A stretch of 64,000 nt of DNA from Lama guanicoe (Eukaryota): contig MU055937.1 of NCBI GenBank assembly GCA_013239625.1, positions 1,054,001-1,118,000 of the forward strand, given 5' to 3'. Below are positions 169 through 13,970 of the stretch, piece by piece. The translations under genes and the position numbers were made by a program. The notes beneath the pieces were generated by a model, which made no database searches, was not told where the DNA came from, and worked only from the letters and a program-made list of their open reading frames with translations. Every line of letters starts with the position of its first letter. The first letter of the stretch is position 1.

Positions 169-332
169 NNNNNNNNNNNNNNNNNNNNNNNNNNNNNNNN
201 NNNNNNNNNNNNNNNNNNNNNNNNNNNNNNNNNNNNNNNNNNNNNNNNNNNNNNNNNNNNNNNNNNNNNNNNNNNNNNNNNNNNNNNNNNNNNNNNNNNN
301 NNNNNNNNNNNNNNNNNNNNNNNNNNNNNNNN
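169..332. other. assembly gap (164 N) covering the DIO2 start codon and first ~30 codons
   Basis: Run of N. Confidence 0.99.
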
Positions 333-463
333 TCATTCTCCTCAAGCACGTGGTGCTGCTGCTGAGCCGCTCCAAGTCCACTCGCGGGGAGTGGAGGCGC
401 ATGCTGACCTCAGAGGGAATGCGCTGCATCTGGAAGAGCTTCCTCCTCGATGCCTACAAACAG
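333..463 (+). CDS. DIO2: type II iodothyronine deiodinase, coding exon 1 (5' part lost in gap)
   Basis: Translates ILLKHVVLLLSRSKSTRGEWRRMLTSEGMRCIWKSFLLDAYKQ, matching mammalian DIO2 residues ~32-74. Ends at phase-0 donor CAG|GTGAGC (463/464). Confidence 0.98.
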
Positions 464-2369
464 GTGAGCTGCACCCAGAGGGGCTTCTCCGCAGGGCAGC
501 GGGGCAGAGGCAGGGGTGTCTGGGGCTGGAGGCCAGCAGGGGCACTGCGGGGAGCATTGTGGAGCCCTGTTCTGTGGTCATGCTCAAGTGAGCTCCTGTG
601 TTTACTCTCTACACCTGCAATACCAGTTAGATTTGGGGATGACAGGTATTAAGCCATAATGACTCTGTGGGACCGAAGAAGGAGTCTTTCTAATAAGGGT
701 CATTAATGTCTGGCTCTGGTTTTGGAGGAGAAGGGTGTTTGTGTCTGTAGAACAACTTTGGGAGAAGTCAGAAAATGCTGGGGGAGGGCAGACTGCTACA
801 TGTATCCTGCTCCTGTCATAGGCTGGCATTTGGATGTTTTGCTGGATGAGCGGCTATGTGAGGTGCCTGCTTTAGGAAAGACAGTTCAGTGGTTAGGCAC
901 TAAAAAAGCAAGGAAAAATAAAAACACCACTCAGAACTCTCAGGGAGTTCACAAGATTTAACAAAACGGTCACAGCAGGTGTGATTTGGCATAATCGCTG
1001 CTTGTTTCCGGTAGAAGTAAGAGTTAATGAAAACAAGTCTGCGTGCGCTGTCATCCTCTACCCTGATTCGAATCGGAACCTTTTGAAGCAGTTATTAGGC
1101 ACTAAGTCCCTGTTACTAGTTATCAGTTTGCAACAGAAAGATCTAAGAACCGGCTGTCAGAAATCCAGACTTTGTTAAGGAAACCACGTTTGCTTTGTTT
1201 CTCAAAAGTTAAGTAAGTTGTCTTAAAGAGCAGATAAGTCTATGGTTTATGACAACCTCAAAGCTGTTATAATTCGTGCCTGGAACACTGGAGCAGTCAC
1301 CACACTTACTTGTGGAAGTCAGGTCCCGGGGGCTGGTCTCTCAAAACCAGAGCTGGTGATCTTTGTTTCTAAGTGAAGAATACTGCTTGGTGATGGTGGA
1401 GCATCTTTAACGCAGATCTTAAAGGGCAAAGAGGAAAAGGCAGTGGTTCTTTGTCAGTTTGCTCCCTCGCTCTCCACCCATATGACTCCTGAGGGTCCCT
1501 GGGTTTAGGAAGAATTGACTCATTTGGCAAAAACTACTATCAAAGCAAGCATTCTCGGTTTTCCCTAACAGCACTGAGGGACCTTGCCTGAGATGCCAGG
1601 GAAGAGAGCTTGAGAGGAATATGGAAGCCAATGAAGTGGTAGGCTATACGCAGGCTGAGCCTCAGAAACGGAGCCGGAAAACTCAGATAAGAGGGGGAAG
1701 GGAATGAGTCCTCCGTAAATAAACGCTAGAAAAATAAACCTATGCACCAGGAAAGGAAAAGAAGTAACTTCTAGTAACAAGAACTCCAGACTAGAATCCT
1801 TCCACTGAAAATCTAACAAGTATTCAAAAAGAAGATATTCATTCTGAATTAGGGAAGTTTTACTATATAATGACATGTCTTTACCTTTGAGAGTGACCTG
1901 CAGAAGATTTGCATTTGTTGCCTTAAAGACAGGAGAATTGTAAGAGCTCTTGTTAGTAAGTGAAAACTTCTTTATAATATGAAATGATGTTCAAAGTTCT
2001 AACTTATGATGTACATGGGGTGAATGGGAGATGCAGGAAGGAGATACTGAGATGATCATTTCATTTCCACAAATGTATACAGTGAGGGTGAATTTTTTAT
2101 GTTTTGTTCTGAGGGGTAGAGAATTTGGAGGAGAGTGGAGTGTGCACAGGTATGCCAGGCATATTATTAATTAGGAAGTTTCCTCATCTATATCTGTATT
2201 TCGTAGCTGCTAAGTGATAACTTGCCAATACCAGTTGTTTGATCTCAGCAAATTAAACTTTTCCTTTTTTGAAAGGCAGTTGACTTTTGCCTATAAAAGA
2301 AAAGCCACTGCTTTGGAGAATTTTACTTATATGTATATATATACTCTCACATAAAACATGAGGTTTGTG

Positions 2370-2530
2370 GGAGGAGGGTATAGTTCAGCTGTAGAGCACA
2401 CACACAGCATGCATGAGGTCCTGGGTTCAATCCCCAGGACCTCCATTAAAAAAATAAGTAAATAAAGAAAGAAACCTAATTACTTCTCCCCTTCAAAAAT
2501 AAATAAAATTTAAAAAATAAAAAAAATGTT
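2370..2530 (+). mobile_element. tRNA-derived SINE, camelid Vic-1-like, with 16-bp target-site duplication
   Basis: A-box-like TAGTTCAGCTGTAGA, B-box GGTTCAATCC (2424-2433), A-rich tail. Flanked by AAACATGAGGTTTGTG (2354-2369) and AAACATGAGGGTTGTG (2531-2546). Confidence 0.88.
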
Positions 2531-4694
2531 AAACATGAGGGTTGTGATGTTACCCACAAATATTCAGTAAAGTTGTTTCTCCTATTAAGCAGCTTACTAA
2601 AATTGAAAAGGAAACAAATGCCTCTTTAATAAACTTTATAATTTATTTCCTCATTCATGGACAGTGTTTCATTGTGTTGCAGTATTTTGTTACCTGGGTT
2701 CCGGGAGACTGAGGAGGAGAGTGATTTGTTTTCTGTTTTCGCTCACAGATTGTGTACTCTTCTCCTGTGTTGTTTCTGTCTCCTGATTTGATTAGTGGCC
2801 AAGTTTATGACTGTTGTTACTATGTTTGCCTTTAAAGACTTATATAATAGTTGCCATGAGAAGCAGCACCCTAAGAAGCCATACAGCCAGTGATGAGACT
2901 GGACTGGGTGCATGATGAATGGAAACACGGCTTGCACCGAGTCTAGGTGTCTCCTTCTGCCTCCTAGTATGGCAAGGGTGGTGGTGGTGGCTGTGGTGGC
3001 ATTTGAGGGTCACTCAGAATCCCTGAAACAGGTTGAATCACTGCCCTGAGTGTAATGGTCATCTCTGCCACTGTCTTTGGGTGTAGCCTTTTCTAGAGAC
3101 ACACTGAAGGAGGCTCTGCCTGAGGGGGGCATCCCAGTGTTTCACAGTCCTGACTTGTGTTAGTTCAAGGCTGCCACCCTGTAAGAGGAGGTTTCCAGGA
3201 TGAGGGGTAGGTGCTCATGTGATGTGATACGAGGCATGTCATTTCGAATTCTCCTTGCTGTTGAATGTCAGATAACTGGAAAGATATTTAGAGAAAGTGC
3301 ACTGAAAGTGTCGTCCCTGTCCTTGGCTCCTACAAGAGGCAGCAAAGAAATTAAAACAAATTAAAACAAAACAAAAAATCCTTATCCATTAGAACGTTGA
3401 AGGGGATTTAAAATTAATGTTATAGAGAAGCCTTTAAAGACAGTTTGGGTTTGGTTAGAGGGAGTGCCATGCATGATTCTGATGAAAAAGAACGCCTACA
3501 GAAATCTGTGAGAGATGGAGGTGCATAACAGATGTTTGTTATTTAAGTTTTTCCTGGTCAGTGTCATTGCGTCAAACACTGCATGCTTGTGCTGGTGCAC
3601 GAAGACTCGAAAATACAACCAATAAGCAAGTTTCTCTGTCTGGGAGCCTGGCTCCTACCTAAATGAAGTGTAAAAGTAAACACACGGTATAGATGCTGAC
3701 AAGCAGTTTAGCTTCTACATGGTCAATATTGCTGTGGCACAGAAAACATATTCATTTGAACATATAATTTTGGTTTTGAAAGGGTCTCTTTAACATTCTC
3801 CTCCCCCTCTTCATTCACCTCAGCCTTTTGACACCAGTTTCTACAATGGAAAATGGCCCTTTTAAAAAAGAAACATTCCCAAAAGAACACAAAGAAGGCT
3901 GCAGCCAGAGCTTGTCCATCAGTTGGATAAAACACTGGGAAATGATAGAGCTTAGAGCTATGTTTTCAAATTACAGATCAGAAAGAGAATGGCCAAAAGG
4001 GAACTGAGCTCAGAGGAAAGAGTAGGTGGCTTATCCTTCAACTCCAACTTACTTGGCCAGTTTGAATGTAAATGGTTAAATCGCTGTTTGATAATTGGCA
4101 TATTTGTAAGGACACTGATGTATCCTGGCCATTATGTCAAAGAATTCGAAATTTCTTGATAATAAAGCTATCCCAGGGCTTTGGACAGCAAGAAGGGTAT
4201 GTAAAAATAATTCTGCCACATAACACCCCCACCCCCTAATTTTCTCATTTGCTTTTCTTTCTATCATGAGATTAGATGATATTTTGTCCAGAAGCCTTTC
4301 TCAGGCTATGGAAAAGAAAAAGAGAAAACAAGGTTAGTAGTATATGATCTATTTCCAGCTTCTACTTGATGAATGGTTCTTTCTTTTTTTTTCCCCCTTG
4401 CCCTGCATTTCACAGTCCACATGCTAAAGCAGCATTATCCTTTCCTCTATGTGCTGGAAAGTGTCCATAAAGGGAATCTTATCATCAAGGGAATCGAATA
4501 CATGCCATAAATTTACACTCTTGTTCATATTTATAAGTATGGCTATTGCAACATCTGAGCTTGGCCCAGAGATGTCCTCTGTTGTAAAAATGCAAGCCAT
4601 TTATTTACCTCCCTTGTTGGTGTTGTATTGATGGTGATTACAAAAACATAAGAAAGGACAGCTGTAATAGTGCAGATGAAAGAAATTAAAGTCA

Positions 4695-5149
4695 NNNNNN
4701 NNNNNNNNNNNNNNNNNNNNNNNNNNNNNNNNNNNNNNNNNNNNNNNNNNNNNNNNNNNNNNNNNNNNNNNNNNNNNNNNNNNNNNNNNNNNNNNNNNNN
4801 NNNNNNNNNNNNNNNNNNNNNNNNNNNNNNNNNNNNNNNNNNNNNNNNNNNNNNNNNNNNNNNNNNNNNNNNNNNNNNNNNNNNNNNNNNNNNNNNNNNN
4901 NNNNNNNNNNNNNNNNNNNNNNNNNNNNNNNNNNNNNNNNNNNNNNNNNNNNNNNNNNNNNNNNNNNNNNNNNNNNNNNNNNNNNNNNNNNNNNNNNNNN
5001 NNNNNNNNNNNNNNNNNNNNNNNNNNNNNNNNNNNNNNNNNNNNNNNNNNNNNNNNNNNNNNNNNNNNNNNNNNNNNNNNNNNNNNNNNNNNNNNNNNNN
5101 NNNNNNNNNNNNNNNNNNNNNNNNNNNNNNNNNNNNNNNNNNNNNNNNN
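4695..5149. other. assembly gap (455 N) in the DIO2 intron
   Basis: Run of N. Confidence 0.99.
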
Positions 5150-5404
5150 AAGGAATGCTTTGCTCCTGGGGAAACCAAAGAATCCTCCATCATTGAAGAC
5201 AATGATGATTCTCCCATTCCATCTCAGCAGGGCGCAAAGCTGAGCAAACCAAGAAATTCTCCATTTGAAACCAGTGATAATAGGAATTTAATTTTCGTGG
5301 TGATCAAATGAGAAATGAACAATAGTATCCTTCTAAAAGATTCATTTCTTTCAGTTTAGAGCAGACTTTTCGTTAAAGATTTTTTCTTTATTTCTTTATT
5401 GTTG

Positions 5405-5515
5405 CTAAATTGTCCTCCATCCGCAGTTTTTAGCAAAGATGGACAAATTTTATGATTAGTATATGATACTTACCAAAGCAGACTACTGGGCTGCTCACAC
5501 TTGGACTTCCAAATC
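5405..5515 (+). other. DIO2: homologue of the human DIO2 isoform-b cassette exon with in-frame TGA; canonical splice sites absent
   Basis: Translates LNCPPSAVFSKDGQIL*(TGA 5453-5455)LVYDTYQSRLLGCSHLDFQI, versus the recalled human insert LNCPPSGFSKDGHILULVYEAYKSRLLVYSHLDLWM. Preceded by a pyrimidine tract ending TTG rather than AG. Confidence 0.75.
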
Positions 5516-5925
5516 ATGGCTGTGGGTTTTCCCCTCATAGTTTTTGTCAGTAGACTTGTTCTTACCTGCACATATTATCTGACCTAGTCACCCTTATGAA
5601 CTGGACATCTGTTTATGGACATTCTAATTTGCAGCCAGGTCCTATGGCTGCTCAGCAAAATAAAGAGAACTGGCTCCTTTCATTTTACGCACTGACCAGC
5701 TGAGATAAACAAGAACACCTCAACAGCATTCGGTGCTGACTGAGACACTGCTCTACAGTGGGAGTCCAGGTCTCACTTCGCCTCAGTCAGCTCATCCAGC
5801 ACCCAAATAGGATTCTGTTCATTGCAGGTCAAGGTTATTATTACATGTAAAGTTCTTCACTGACCCCTGCCTAGGATCGTAACAACTGTAACTCATTCAA
5901 TAATTTATTCAACAAAAATTTTAAA

Positions 5926-6040
5926 GTATATATATATAAACACACACACACATATATATGAATTTTTTCCCCAGCTTAACAAAATGCCACCTCCCCCTCT
6001 CCCACTCTGGACCTTAAACACACATACACACACACACACA
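5926..6040. repeat. (TA)n/(CA)n microsatellites
   Basis: TA and CA runs at ~5927-5959 and ~6018-6040. Confidence 0.85.
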
Positions 6041-7939
6041 AAGATCGTTACATATTTGATAACTTTACTAATTTTTGATTTTAGACCAAAGATGTACTTG
6101 TTCTAAATTTTCTAAGGTAAAGTTTTTTTGTTTTTGTTTTTTTACCTTGTAGTCTGTATTTCAAAAAGAATTATGTGGCTGGATTATATACATTGTCACT
6201 AAAGAGAAGGAGAAGGTGTTCCAGCTTTCCAAGAAAATTAATTACAGGTAACAAGAGAGTCACCTGTGACTGAAGTGTCAGATTAGATTATTCAGCTGAA
6301 TAATCAGGAATAATGCAGGGATCAATAGTTCTGCTTGGGTGAGAGTCAGAGCGTCAGAGGCCCATTTTACAAGACGACAGGATTGCTCAGAGCCCTTAAA
6401 ACGACTCCAACACGCACATGGCTGTTTTCACCTACCGAGAACCTACAGGTCTGTAGTCCAGACCTCCCATATGTGTTGCTCACTTAAAGAGAATTTGCTA
6501 CAACAGCTAATGGGTTCAGACTGATCTGAATGCATCCAGATCTTTATATCACAGTATGTTGAGAAACACAGCACAATATTATTAAAAGCAGTCCTCCTAG
6601 AATCATTACTGCTGTTTTAAGTGTGAAAGATCTCACGAGAAGGTGATAATGATGCTACCTACCACCTAAATCCACAAAGAAGTACAAAAACAAGCCATAG
6701 ATTAAAAAACCCTTGCAGTGCCTTTAAAATGTATACCTTTAAATTTCAAGTATAGTTTAAAACCTCAGAGACAATTGTAGCTCATATAAAACAATCCACC
6801 TAAAAGTGGCTTATTAGATTTCTCCATCTAGTGTCACTTGCAACATAACCAAGAAAATTAATATACATTAAATAACTTTCTCTGTGATAGTGACTGAAAA
6901 CAAGTGTACTTATTTAAATCACACCAACAGTTTCATTTTCTAGAAAAGAGGATTGTTCTTCCAAGATTTCTTTTAGAAAATGAACGGTACTTTTTTCAAA
7001 CCAGCCCTGATAGGATATTTCACGAGGGAAAGAAAGGACTTCGATTCTTTCTCTATGGTTAAAATGAGTTATGCATTAACATTAGAGAGAAGCTTCTGAA
7101 TAGAAGCCCTTGAGTATTTTATATCAGTGTGGATTATTGAGTTTTTAACAATTCACTTCTAAGTGACTTCAATTACCAGCAATGTCATATGTGGTAGTAT
7201 TTATATGAGGGGGTGGGGGGGAGTCGATGCAGTTGGAAGTGTTTTATAATATTAAGAATAGTGTATAAGAATCAATTGTGCTGTTGTAAGTTGTCCCTAA
7301 TGTTACTGGCTTTGATAAAACCATTCTAGGGGAAGATCCAATTGTGTTAATTTAAACTGAAGTAATTGGCTCTTTCATGTTTCTTGCTTTTTATTATCAA
7401 TTTACATATTCAAAGACCAGCAAGCTTTCTTTCAGTCTGTGTTCAACCATTTAAACCATGTGCAAAGTGGGCACATGGAAAAATTTTCTTCTATATCTCT
7501 TCTGCCTGAGTATTTTATAATTCAGAGGAACTTGTTTATAAAATGTATGGTAGAAAAGTAAAGGGTTTGTGACTCCCTAGATTAAAAAAAAAGGGGGGGA
7601 ACAAACAAAAAAAACACATGACAAATGAGAAATTAAAAGTAGAATTCTACAAAAAGTAAAATTGTATGTTTTTGTTCATTCATTTGTTTGCTTGTTTAAT
7701 GGAAATGAGATTCTAGTCAAAAGAACCCCAAAGTATGCAGAAGCCATAGAAACAAACCTCCAGGATGGGTGTCACACTGAGGAGAGCTCAAATCACTTCC
7801 AAGAATAATTTTTTTTAAATGTAGAATTGCCCAGGAAAGTGGTGTTCTGTTTCACATGTTTGCATGGCACCCATAACGGCAACCTCCACCCCCGCGGTGC
7901 TTTGTTGTGTAACCAAGAGCTCTTTTCCTTATAGGGGAG

Positions 7940-8040
7940 ATAGGCATTATTGTCACCACTCTACAGATGGGAAAGCCGGAGTCTGGAGAGATTAAGTGGG
8001 AACAGGCCTTCTTATAAATGGTGCACTCCAGGTTTGCTAG
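7940..8040 (-). mobile_element. MIR SINE fragment
   Basis: ATTATTGTCACCACTCTACAGATGGGAAAGCCGGAGTCTGGAGAGATTAAGTG resembles the reverse complement of the MIR core. Confidence 0.6.
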
Positions 8041-8555
8041 TTCTGTGCAGCCCACTAGTATCCTTGTCCAGTGGTTGAGATTAAATGCCTTAGCATCAGG
8101 CAAGAAAATAAAGGTCTTTTCTGAGTATTTTAGAATTCAGAAGTGGGGATTCAGAAAGAGGTACTATGTCCCACAATTCTGATAATTTGTCTTAAAGGGA
8201 CTTTTCAAATGAAGTCAATTGATCATTTGTTACACATTGTGTACAAAGCACTGACACAAAGTGAGGATAGTAAAGAATGCCAGCCTCAACTTAATTAGGA
8301 AGAGAGTCAACATCAGTGCCTTCAATGATGAAAATAATTACATTTAGTGACTAAACAGGATGCAAACGATTTTTATTCCCTTTAAGGCCATTTGTTACCT
8401 GCCATGATGGCTTTCTATTCAAATCAATATGTTTCCAGTGTCCTCTGACAGATACACCACATTTTATTAGAGCCAGTTGTTTCTACATAGAGTGAATTGA
8501 AGTGGCAATGTGTTTAATGTGGTAGTCTCTTCCTCTTTCTTTTTTTCACCACCAG

Positions 8556-9143
8556 GTGAAATTAGGTGAAGATGCCCCCAATTCCAGTGTGGTGCATGTC
8601 TCCAATTCTGAAGGAGGAGACAACAGTGGGGATGGTGCCCAGGAGAAGACAGTTGATGGAACTGAGTGCCACCTTCTTGACTTTGCCAACCCTGAGCGCC
8701 CACTGGTTGTCAACTTCGGCTCAGCCACTTGACCTCCTTTTACCAGCCAGCTGCCAGCCTTCAGCAAACTGGTGGAAGAATTCTCATCAGTGGCGGACTT
8801 CCTGTTGGTCTACATTGATGAGGCTCATCCTTCAGATGGTTGGGCGGTGCCTGGGGATTCTTCTTTGTCTTTTGAGGTGAAGAAGCACCGAAACCAGGAA
8901 GACCGATGTGCAGCAGCCCACCAGCTTCTGGAGCGTTTCTCCTTGCCGCCCCAGTGCCGAGTTGTGGCTGACCGCATGGACGACAATGCCAACGTAGCCT
9001 ATGGGGTGGCCTTCGAACGTGTCTGTATTGTGCAGAGACAGAAAATTGCTTATCTGGGAGGAAAGGGTCCCTTCCACTACAACCTTCAAGAAGTCCGGCG
9101 TTGGCTGGAGAAGAATTTCAGCAAGAGATGAAATCTAGATTAG
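8556..9143 (+). CDS. DIO2: type II iodothyronine deiodinase, coding exon 2 (selenoprotein; UGA=Sec at 8730-8732, second UGA at 9129-9131, TAG stop 9141-9143)
   Basis: VKLGEDAPNSSVVHVS...RPLVVNFGSAT-U-PPF...LLVYIDEAHPSDGW...AYLGGKGPFHYNLQEVRRWLEKNFSKR-U-NLD*. Deiodinase catalytic motifs are intact. 269 aa if both UGAs are decoded, 265 aa if the second terminates. Confidence 0.99.
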
Positions 9144-13900: not shown

Positions 13901-13970
13901 CAGTGTGCAAATGATAACTACTGATGAAAGAGTCCTCGACTCAGTTAGTGGTTGGATGTGGTCACATTTG
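13901..13970 (+). promoter_or_regulatory. SECIS element (form 2 / type II)
   Basis: AUGA 13911-13914; helix II AACUACUGAU (13916-13925) pairs with 13944-13953; unpaired AAA 13927-13929; mini-stem GAGUC/GACUC (13930-13934/13938-13942); GA 13955-13956; helix I UGUG/CACA. Confidence 0.96.

What the first reader, a model, noticed from the sequence alone, without database searches (positions are those of the whole stretch)
5360..5521. Hidden intronic 'third-UGA' cassette exon of DIO2: frame and TGA kept, splice sites changed
Seen: 5405-5515 is open in the phase-0 DIO2 frame except for one TGA (5453-5455), giving LNCPPSAVFSKDGQIL*LVYDTYQSRLLGCSHLDFQI. Recalled: human DIO2 isoform b inserts a 108-nt exon LNCPPSGFSKDGHILULVYEAYKSRLLVYSHLDLWM between the same two exons. 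The copy here differs by a frame-preserving 3-nt indel and keeps the TGA. The homologous acceptor reads TTG|CTA and the homologous end has no GT. However, an in-frame AG lies upstream (TTTAG| at 5359, stop-free to 5405) and an in-frame GT lies downstream (GCT|GTGGGT at 5521/5522), allowing a 162-nt exon. Inference: this UGA, unlike the two in the last exon, would sit 60-66 nt before an exon junction. It could therefore act as a selenium-sensitive poison exon (NMD unless Sec is inserted). Alternatively it is just the unexonised precursor of a primate exon. The ORF track misses it entirely.
Basis: partly seen in the sequence, partly recalled or inferred. Interest (0 to 1): 0.8.

Follow-up and report, generated by a model that had tools for sequence, protein, structure and literature searches.

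The report
DIO2 intron precursor of primate exon
This stretch of a thyroid-hormone gene's intron matches a known minor primate exon but lacks that exon's splice-in signal, so it is most likely ordinary intron DNA, not a selenium-controlled switch.

Summary
The sequence facts hold. 5360-5521 is open in the DIO2 frame except TGA 5453-5455, and 5405-5515 is orthologous to a cassette that five named primate DIO2 protein models splice after exon 1. The exon reading is poorly supported. The primate acceptor position reads TTG. The substitute AG at 5359 has no branch-like motif and competes with an upstream out-of-frame CAG. The donor is middling. The peptide changes about twelve times faster than exon 1 (21/36 vs 2/43 columns), mouse lemur has Trp at the UGA column, and none of 56 non-primate entries examined carries the cassette. 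Against this, frame plus TGA survival is somewhat better than neutral (joint chance about 0.01-0.18) and the cassette is slower than a neighbouring one (p=0.08). Best reading: unspliced intron with proto-splice signals that primates exonised. A selenium-sensitive poison exon is not excluded (about 6%). A second primate cassette's orthologue (6085-6247) keeps an AG and a strong GT, has an in-frame TAA, and is the better poison-exon candidate. No mammalian DNA or RNA-seq was available.

The parts
335..463 (+). Visible coding part of DIO2 exon 1 (start hidden by N gap 169-332); strong phase-0 donor after 463
   Evidence: Pfam T4_deiodinase E 7e-11; 100% identical to dog, horse and pig entries, 95% to named primates; U1 duplex -11.1 kcal/mol
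5352..5354 (+). Competing upstream CAG acceptor, 10 of 11 pyrimidines before it; out of frame, reaches TAA at 5406-5408
5360..5521 (+).
5385..5404 (+). T-rich tract ending in TTG at the position of the primate acceptor: a proto-acceptor without AG
   Evidence: 82% pyrimidine; primate peptide starts at the codon 5405-5407
5405..5515 (+). Orthologue of the first primate DIO2 intronic cassette (36 codons in primates, 37 here); 3' end of the alignment uncertain
   Evidence: tblastn of five named primate proteins; 21-26 identical of 35-36 columns; end ambiguity
5453..5455 (+). In-frame TGA; aligns with a skipped codon in three primate models, with Trp in Microcebus, and with a longer gap in Rhinopithecus
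6085..6247 (+). Orthologue of the second primate cassette; keeps an AG acceptor with branch-like motifs and a strong GT donor; in-frame TAA 6118-6120, 27-nt insertion and 2-nt frameshift relative to most primate models
8556..9131 (+). DIO2 last exon coding part: whole catalytic thioredoxin-fold domain, Sec UGA 8730-8732, second UGA 9129-9131
   Evidence: PDB 9h48 match E 2.8e-111; Pfam
13903..13967 (+). [quoted passage not shown]
   Evidence: Rfam RF00031, 35.9 bits against gathering 35

Best explanation
5405-5515 is ordinary DIO2 intron in this non-primate mammal, descended from the same ancestral DNA that primates use as a minor cassette exon. SHOWN: homology, position, open frame, TGA, a strong pyrimidine tract ending in TTG instead of AG, and fast amino-acid change. 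INFERRED: the spliceosome here joins 463 to 8556 and skips the segment because the tract has no AG. One base change at that TTG, a gain in primates or a loss in this lineage, accounts for the difference at the acceptor. The TGA is an inherited intronic triplet that only looks like a third Sec codon because the mRNA has a SECIS. The 5360/5521 pair is a chance AG/GT pair.
For: No AG at the orthologous acceptor. The 5360 acceptor has no yTnAy motif within 60 nt and is preceded 5 nt earlier by a CAG with an equal or better tract that leads to TAA. The donor matches 4 of 9 consensus bases (232 of 438 intronic GTs match at least as many); its U1 duplex is -4.7 against -11.1 kcal/mol for the real donor. 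The intron holds 50 in-frame AG..GT segments with a single TGA at least 55 nt before the donor, covering 15 different TGAs. Parsimony changes: 21 in 36 columns against 2 in 43 for exon 1, p=6e-6; window-primate identity is not distinguishable from the neighbouring broken cassette (Fisher p 0.14-1.0). Microcebus has Trp at the UGA column, and neutral survival of a TGA is 39-65%. The cassette is in 5 of 8 named primate entries and 0 of 56 non-primate entries examined. No Pfam match and no unusual RNA fold (z -0.87).
Against: Keeping frame, TGA and no other stop has a simulated joint chance of 0.04-0.18 at distances 0.15-0.2, but only 0.009-0.06 at 0.25-0.3 (distances and indel rates are assumptions, and about 0.3 is my recollection of the genome-wide value). 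The cassette shows fewer changes than the second cassette (21 vs 35, p=0.08; Cercopithecinae-Propithecus 32/36 vs 24/36, p=0.05). The 5360 acceptor is among the top 14 of 242 intronic YAGs by pyrimidine content, and all 3 segments with both sites at the candidate's level use it; only 3 of 221 control stretches reach both thresholds (thresholds set after the fact). By U1 energy the donor is in the top 56 of 438 and may be the orthologous donor. Absence from non-primate protein models is weak evidence, since the primate models are probably projected from human annotation (inference).
Confidence: 0.69

Rival explanations
1. Noise-level cryptic exon: 5360 (or 5355) to 5521 is occasionally included, and the product stops at the UGA (or TAA) and is removed by NMD, with no selected role.
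For: Acceptor in the top 14 of 242 YAGs; donor in the top 56 of 438 GTs by U1 energy; UGA 66 nt from the junction, past the 50-55 nt rule (PMC4105750, passages); Sec insertion is only about 10-25% efficient (PMC8704476, passages), so most such transcripts would terminate even when selenium is ample.
Against: No branch-like motif; stronger cryptic pairs exist in the same intron, such as 6085-6247; no transcript evidence.
Confidence: 0.13
2. The segment is not spliced but lies in a slowly evolving non-coding element (enhancer-like or splicing-regulatory), and low local divergence preserves frame and TGA as a by-product.
For: Window-primate identity of 60-72% matches a distance near 0.2, against 46-66% for the cassette 600 nt downstream; 21 vs 35 changes, p=0.08.
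Against: The difference is not significant; only peptide models were compared, so silent sites were invisible; no Rfam match or stable fold.
Confidence: 0.1
3. Conserved selenium-sensitive poison exon: an old cassette whose acceptor moved 45 nt upstream in this lineage. Inclusion puts a UGA 66 nt before the last junction, so DIO2, whose own UGAs are in the last exon, gains NMD control that eases when Sec-tRNA is plentiful.
For: Frame, TGA and absence of other stops kept (joint neutral chance 0.01-0.18); net indel is one codon; SECIS present; donor could be orthologous; precedent in the SELENON Alu exon, whose UGA-bearing inclusion isoform is an NMD target (PMC9076623, passages).
Against: Orthologous AG absent; competing out-of-frame CAG; Trp in Microcebus and single-codon gaps in Saimiri and Microcebus that may hide frameshifts; in all five primate models the cassette is followed by a second cassette that ends the frame; escape from NMD would give a protein with 54 extra residues just before the catalytic domain, and the human 36-residue form is, as I recall, inactive.
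Confidence: 0.06
4. Functional coding exon giving a DIO2 isoform with a third selenocysteine.
For: Open frame, in-frame UGA and SECIS.
Against: Amino-acid change about twelve times that of exon 1; Trp rather than Cys replacement; no domain or redox motif; no long-isoform protein found (0 of 86 named proteins).
Confidence: 0.02

Closest known systems
Primate DIO2 intronic cassette 1 (human variants hDII-b/hDII-c, Ohba et al. 2001, PMID 11165050; citation seen in reference lists; content recalled; UniRef models P0138, P0140, P0142-P0144)
   Same: Orthologous sequence, same intron, same frame, TGA at the same column.
   Different: No AG at the acceptor here; one extra codon; donor position uncertain; no transcript evidence in this species.
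SELENON Alu exon (PMC9076623, passages)
   Same: Intronic segment of a selenoprotein gene with an in-frame UGA, exonised in a primate lineage, inclusion isoform degraded by NMD.
   Different: SELENON's exon is Alu-derived, shown to be spliced, and regulated by ADAR1 and hnRNP C; the authors treat its UGA as a premature stop. Here no second copy was found in the window and splicing is unshown.
Selenium-dependent NMD of GPX1, SELENOW, SELENOP mRNAs (PMC4105750, passages)
   Same: UGA more than 50-55 nt before a junction, with Sec insertion competing against termination; this is how the exon would work if included.
   Different: In those genes the UGA is the functional Sec codon in a constitutive exon; here it would be an optional, non-catalytic UGA.
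SELENOT extra intron-1 exon (PMC3316567, section 16)
   Same: [quoted passage not shown]
   Different: Carries several stops and a frameshift and has human EST support (13 of 88); closer to the 6085-6247 segment than to this one.

Membership tests
Orthologue of primate DIO2 cassette 1 (sequence) | Homology at the same intronic position and frame | tested here: met
   tblastn E 1.4e-6 to 4.6e-11 for five named primate proteins
Primate-type DIO2 cassette exon (as an exon) | AG acceptor immediately before the first cassette codon | tested here: not met
   TTG at 5402-5404
Primate-type DIO2 cassette exon (as an exon) | GT donor at the orthologous 3' end | tested here: inconclusive
   Ungapped alignment gives AT after 5515; cheap-gap alignment prefers GT after 5521 or 5525
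Primate-type DIO2 cassette exon (as an exon) | Spliced transcripts | not testable with these tools
   No RNA-seq; no protein model in 56 non-primate entries examined
Conserved poison exon (AS-NMD) | Stop more than 50-55 nt before the last junction on inclusion | tested here: met
   66 nt for 5360-5521, conditional on splicing
Conserved poison exon (AS-NMD) | Usable splice signals | tested here: inconclusive
   Good pyrimidine tract, no branch-like motif, competing AG, middling donor; MaxEntScan/SpliceAI not available
Conserved poison exon (AS-NMD) | Splice sites conserved across species | tested here: not met
   The proposed acceptor is 45 nt away from the primate one
Conserved poison exon (AS-NMD) | Nucleotide conservation above flanking intron | tested here: inconclusive
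   Peptide-level proxy only: 21 vs 35 changes, p=0.08
Conserved poison exon (AS-NMD) | Inclusion isoform rises on NMD inhibition | not testable with these tools
   Needs experiment
Functional selenocysteine codon | In-frame UGA with a SECIS in the same transcript unit | tested here: met
Functional selenocysteine codon | Aligned with Sec/Cys in orthologues inside a constrained protein segment | tested here: not met
   Trp in Microcebus P0142; 21 changes in 36 columns; no Pfam match

The most novel reading that the evidence does not exclude
An ancestral placental-mammal cassette in DIO2 keeps a non-catalytic UGA as a selenium sensor. Its donor is conserved, its acceptor has turned over, and inclusion converts an NMD-immune selenoprotein mRNA into an NMD target whose survival depends on Sec insertion, tying local T3 production to selenium supply. 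It may act together with the conventional poison cassette at 6085-6247.
Probability: 0.06. Interest if true: 0.65.

Novelty: already known. Interest (0 to 1): 0.17.

Why it matters
As best explained it matters little: it is the intronic orthologue of a minor primate DIO2 exon reported in 2001, and a tidy example of exonisation from a proto-splice site. If the novel case held, it would be a conserved exon whose job is to carry a recodable stop, a new route for selenium control of thyroid-hormone activation. I found no paper on conservation of this cassette outside primates or on such a role in ten searches, but the library lacks most subscription journals, including the two primary papers on these variants.

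Tried and rejected
Search with the 54-residue cassette against proteins of 96-2000 residues: 8 candidates, none significant (weak evidence). Last-exon search: 162 hits, 120 listed, 86 named ones examined, none with the cassette between the two exons; 34 unnamed listed hits not examined. Exon-1 search: 93 hits, 64 examined, 29 unnamed ones not examined. phmmer against 50% representatives: 5 hits, one being P0143; the other four are unnamed and were not examined, among them P0195 (147 aa, query 14-53 on its residues 1-40, E 3e-4), whose origin stays open. The cluster-member look-up could not be made, so accession numbers and evidence behind the primate models stay unknown. The second-cassette row for the window used the wrong frame and was discarded; one search replaces it. 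Rhinopithecus was left out of the counts because its model skips ten codons. A repeat origin was checked only by self-comparison within the window, with no convincing second copy. RNA structure around the cassette is no better than shuffles. Ohba 2001, two look-ups (a PMC id and a DOI) aimed at a RefSeq recoding paper, and a 2008 deiodinase review were not held. No collection of mammalian DNA or reads was available, so DNA-level conservation stayed unchecked. No supplements were read; alignments in supplements of PMC3316567 are image files and could bear on DIO2 isoforms.

Full report
Setting. The window holds DIO2 of a non-primate placental mammal. The visible part of coding exon 1 ends at 463, the single coding intron runs 464-8555, and the last exon starts at 8556 with the Sec UGA at 8730-8732 and a second UGA at 9129-9131. 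A SECIS lies at 13903-13967. Exon 1 is identical to dog, horse and pig entries and 95% identical to named primates. The stop 9 nt after the second UGA is the non-primate pattern described in PMC3316567 (passages).

Observation. 5360-5521 translates to 54 codons with one stop, TGA 5453-5455. The AG, TTG and GT positions and the 60/66-nt distances are as stated. An exon-1 search returned 93 proteins, of which 64 were examined. Five named primate models (Rhinopithecus, Propithecus, Microcebus, Cercopithecinae, Saimiri) join exon 1 to a peptide that aligns to 5405 onwards with E 1.4e-6 to 4.6e-11. Three other primate entries and all 56 non-primate entries lack it. So the segment is the orthologue of a primate cassette. 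The 2001 report of two human splice variants exists (citation seen). Its content, insertions of 108 and 242 nt, is recalled because the paper is not held.

Is the open frame special? Not by itself. 21% of 37-codon windows in this intron have no TAA/TAG and at most one TGA. There are 514 in-frame AG..GT segments of 60-250 nt without TAA/TAG, 137 with exactly one TGA, and 50 with that TGA at least 55 nt before the donor, involving 15 different TGAs. Among single-TGA open stretches of the same shape, 4 of 14 in the intron (the candidate included) and 44 of 221 in control strands and downstream DNA have an in-frame AG upstream and GT downstream. Against my reading, only 3 of those 221 reach the candidate's level at both sites, although those thresholds were set from the candidate itself.

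Splice signals. At the primate acceptor position the window has an 82% pyrimidine tract ending in TTG, a proto-acceptor one base away from AG. The substitute acceptor at 5360 has a good tract (top 14 of 242 YAGs) but no yTnAy motif within 60 nt. Five bases upstream is a CAG with 10 of 11 pyrimidines before it, whose use gives another frame ending at TAA 5406-5408. The donor after 5521 matches 4 of 9 consensus bases, which 232 of 438 intronic GTs equal or exceed. By forced U1 duplex energy it ranks better, 56 of 438, but is -4.7 kcal/mol against -11.1 for the true donor. These are crude scores; MaxEntScan and SpliceAI were not available. The last three cassette codons do not match the primates, and one column needs three base changes, so the site of the orthologous donor is open: after 5515 (AT) under ordinary gap costs, after 5521 or 5525 (GT) under cheap ones.

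Constraint. On a tree of the window and four primates (Rhinopithecus dropped), parsimony gives 2 amino-acid changes in 43 columns for exon 1, 21 in 36 for this cassette and 35 in 36 for a second cassette downstream. The cassette is far from a coding exon (p=6e-6) and only borderline slower than its neighbour (p=0.08). Window-primate identities (21-26 of 35-36) do not differ significantly from the neighbour's (16-23 of 35; Fisher p 0.14-1.0). Three primate models skip one codon at the UGA column, which I scored as the stop; skipping of Sec codons is a documented annotation flaw (PMC12822975, passages). Microcebus has Trp there and lacks a nearby codon, most simply TGA to TGG (inference from protein only). 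Saimiri also lacks one codon. Such gaps in projected models can hide frameshifts (recalled). Neutral simulation gives 39-65% survival of the TGA alone. For TGA, no other stop and no frameshift together it gives 0.04-0.18 at distances 0.15-0.2 (which fit the observed identity) and 0.009-0.06 at 0.25-0.3 (rates assumed).

An internal control. All five primate models continue into a second cassette, whose orthologue is 6085-6247. It is recognisable at similar identity yet carries an in-frame TAA (6118-6120), a 27-nt insertion and a 2-nt frameshift, so recognisable homology in this intron does not need coding constraint. It keeps an AG with two branch-like motifs and a donor ranked 6 of 438. Its geometry implies a 134-nt primate exon, matching the recalled 242 minus 108. 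If any segment here is an old poison exon, this is the better candidate, and its stop is UAA, which selenium cannot rescue.

Mechanism. Most likely (0.69) the segment is removed with the intron and does nothing as an exon; primates use it because they have an AG after the pre-existing tract. If it were included, the UGA would lie 66 nt before the last junction, beyond the 50-55 nt rule, whereas Sec codons in a last exon are predicted NMD-resistant (PMC4105750, passages). Sec insertion is only about 10-25% efficient (PMC8704476, passages), so most such transcripts would terminate even with ample selenium. Read-through would place 54 residues directly before the catalytic domain, which begins at the last-exon start (PDB 9h48). 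I recall that the human long form is inactive (Gereben 2002; not found). Rivals: noise-level cryptic inclusion (0.13), a slow non-coding element (0.10), a conserved selenium-sensitive poison exon (0.06) and a functional three-Sec isoform (0.02).

Comparison and novelty. The closest systems are the primate DIO2 variants themselves, the SELENON Alu exon with its UGA and NMD fate (PMC9076623, passages), selenium-dependent NMD of GPX1-type mRNAs and the SELENOT extra exon (PMC3316567, section 16). Passages of PMC11167750, PMC3365412, PMC13134290 and PMC12936836 that I saw did not discuss this cassette. The segment is the sequence orthologue of a known primate exon and fails the exon test at the acceptor. 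Verdict: already known, interest 0.17, with a 6% chance of a more interesting reading that a mammal-wide DNA alignment and RNA-seq would settle.

Noticed in passing
window 6085-6247 (+): Orthologue of the second primate DIO2 cassette with AG acceptor, branch-like motifs and a strong donor retained; inclusion after exon 1 would give TAA 127 nt before the junction. A better conventional poison-exon candidate than the reported segment. Internal donor after 6116 and internal acceptor at 6153 also look strong.
   Followed up: partly
window 5352-5365 (+): Cluster of four AGs; only the one ending at 5359 is in the DIO2 frame, the other three reach TAA or TGA stops quickly.
   Followed up: yes
window about 2372-2530 (+): tRNA-derived SINE-like insertion with A-rich tail; resembles a camelid SINE from recollection; ARAGORN finds no tRNA.
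   Followed up: no
window 169-332 and 4695-5149: Assembly gaps; the first hides the DIO2 start codon and about 31 codons of exon 1, the second ends 210 nt before the proposed cassette.
   Followed up: no
P0142 (Microcebus model): Trp at the column of the cassette UGA, suggesting loss of the TGA in a primate.
   Followed up: partly
P0195: Unnamed 147-aa protein whose first 40 residues match cassette residues 14-53 (E 3e-4); origin unknown, not examined.
   Followed up: no
Many named DIO2 proteins: Database models that skip the catalytic Sec region, a known annotation flaw for selenoproteins.
   Followed up: no
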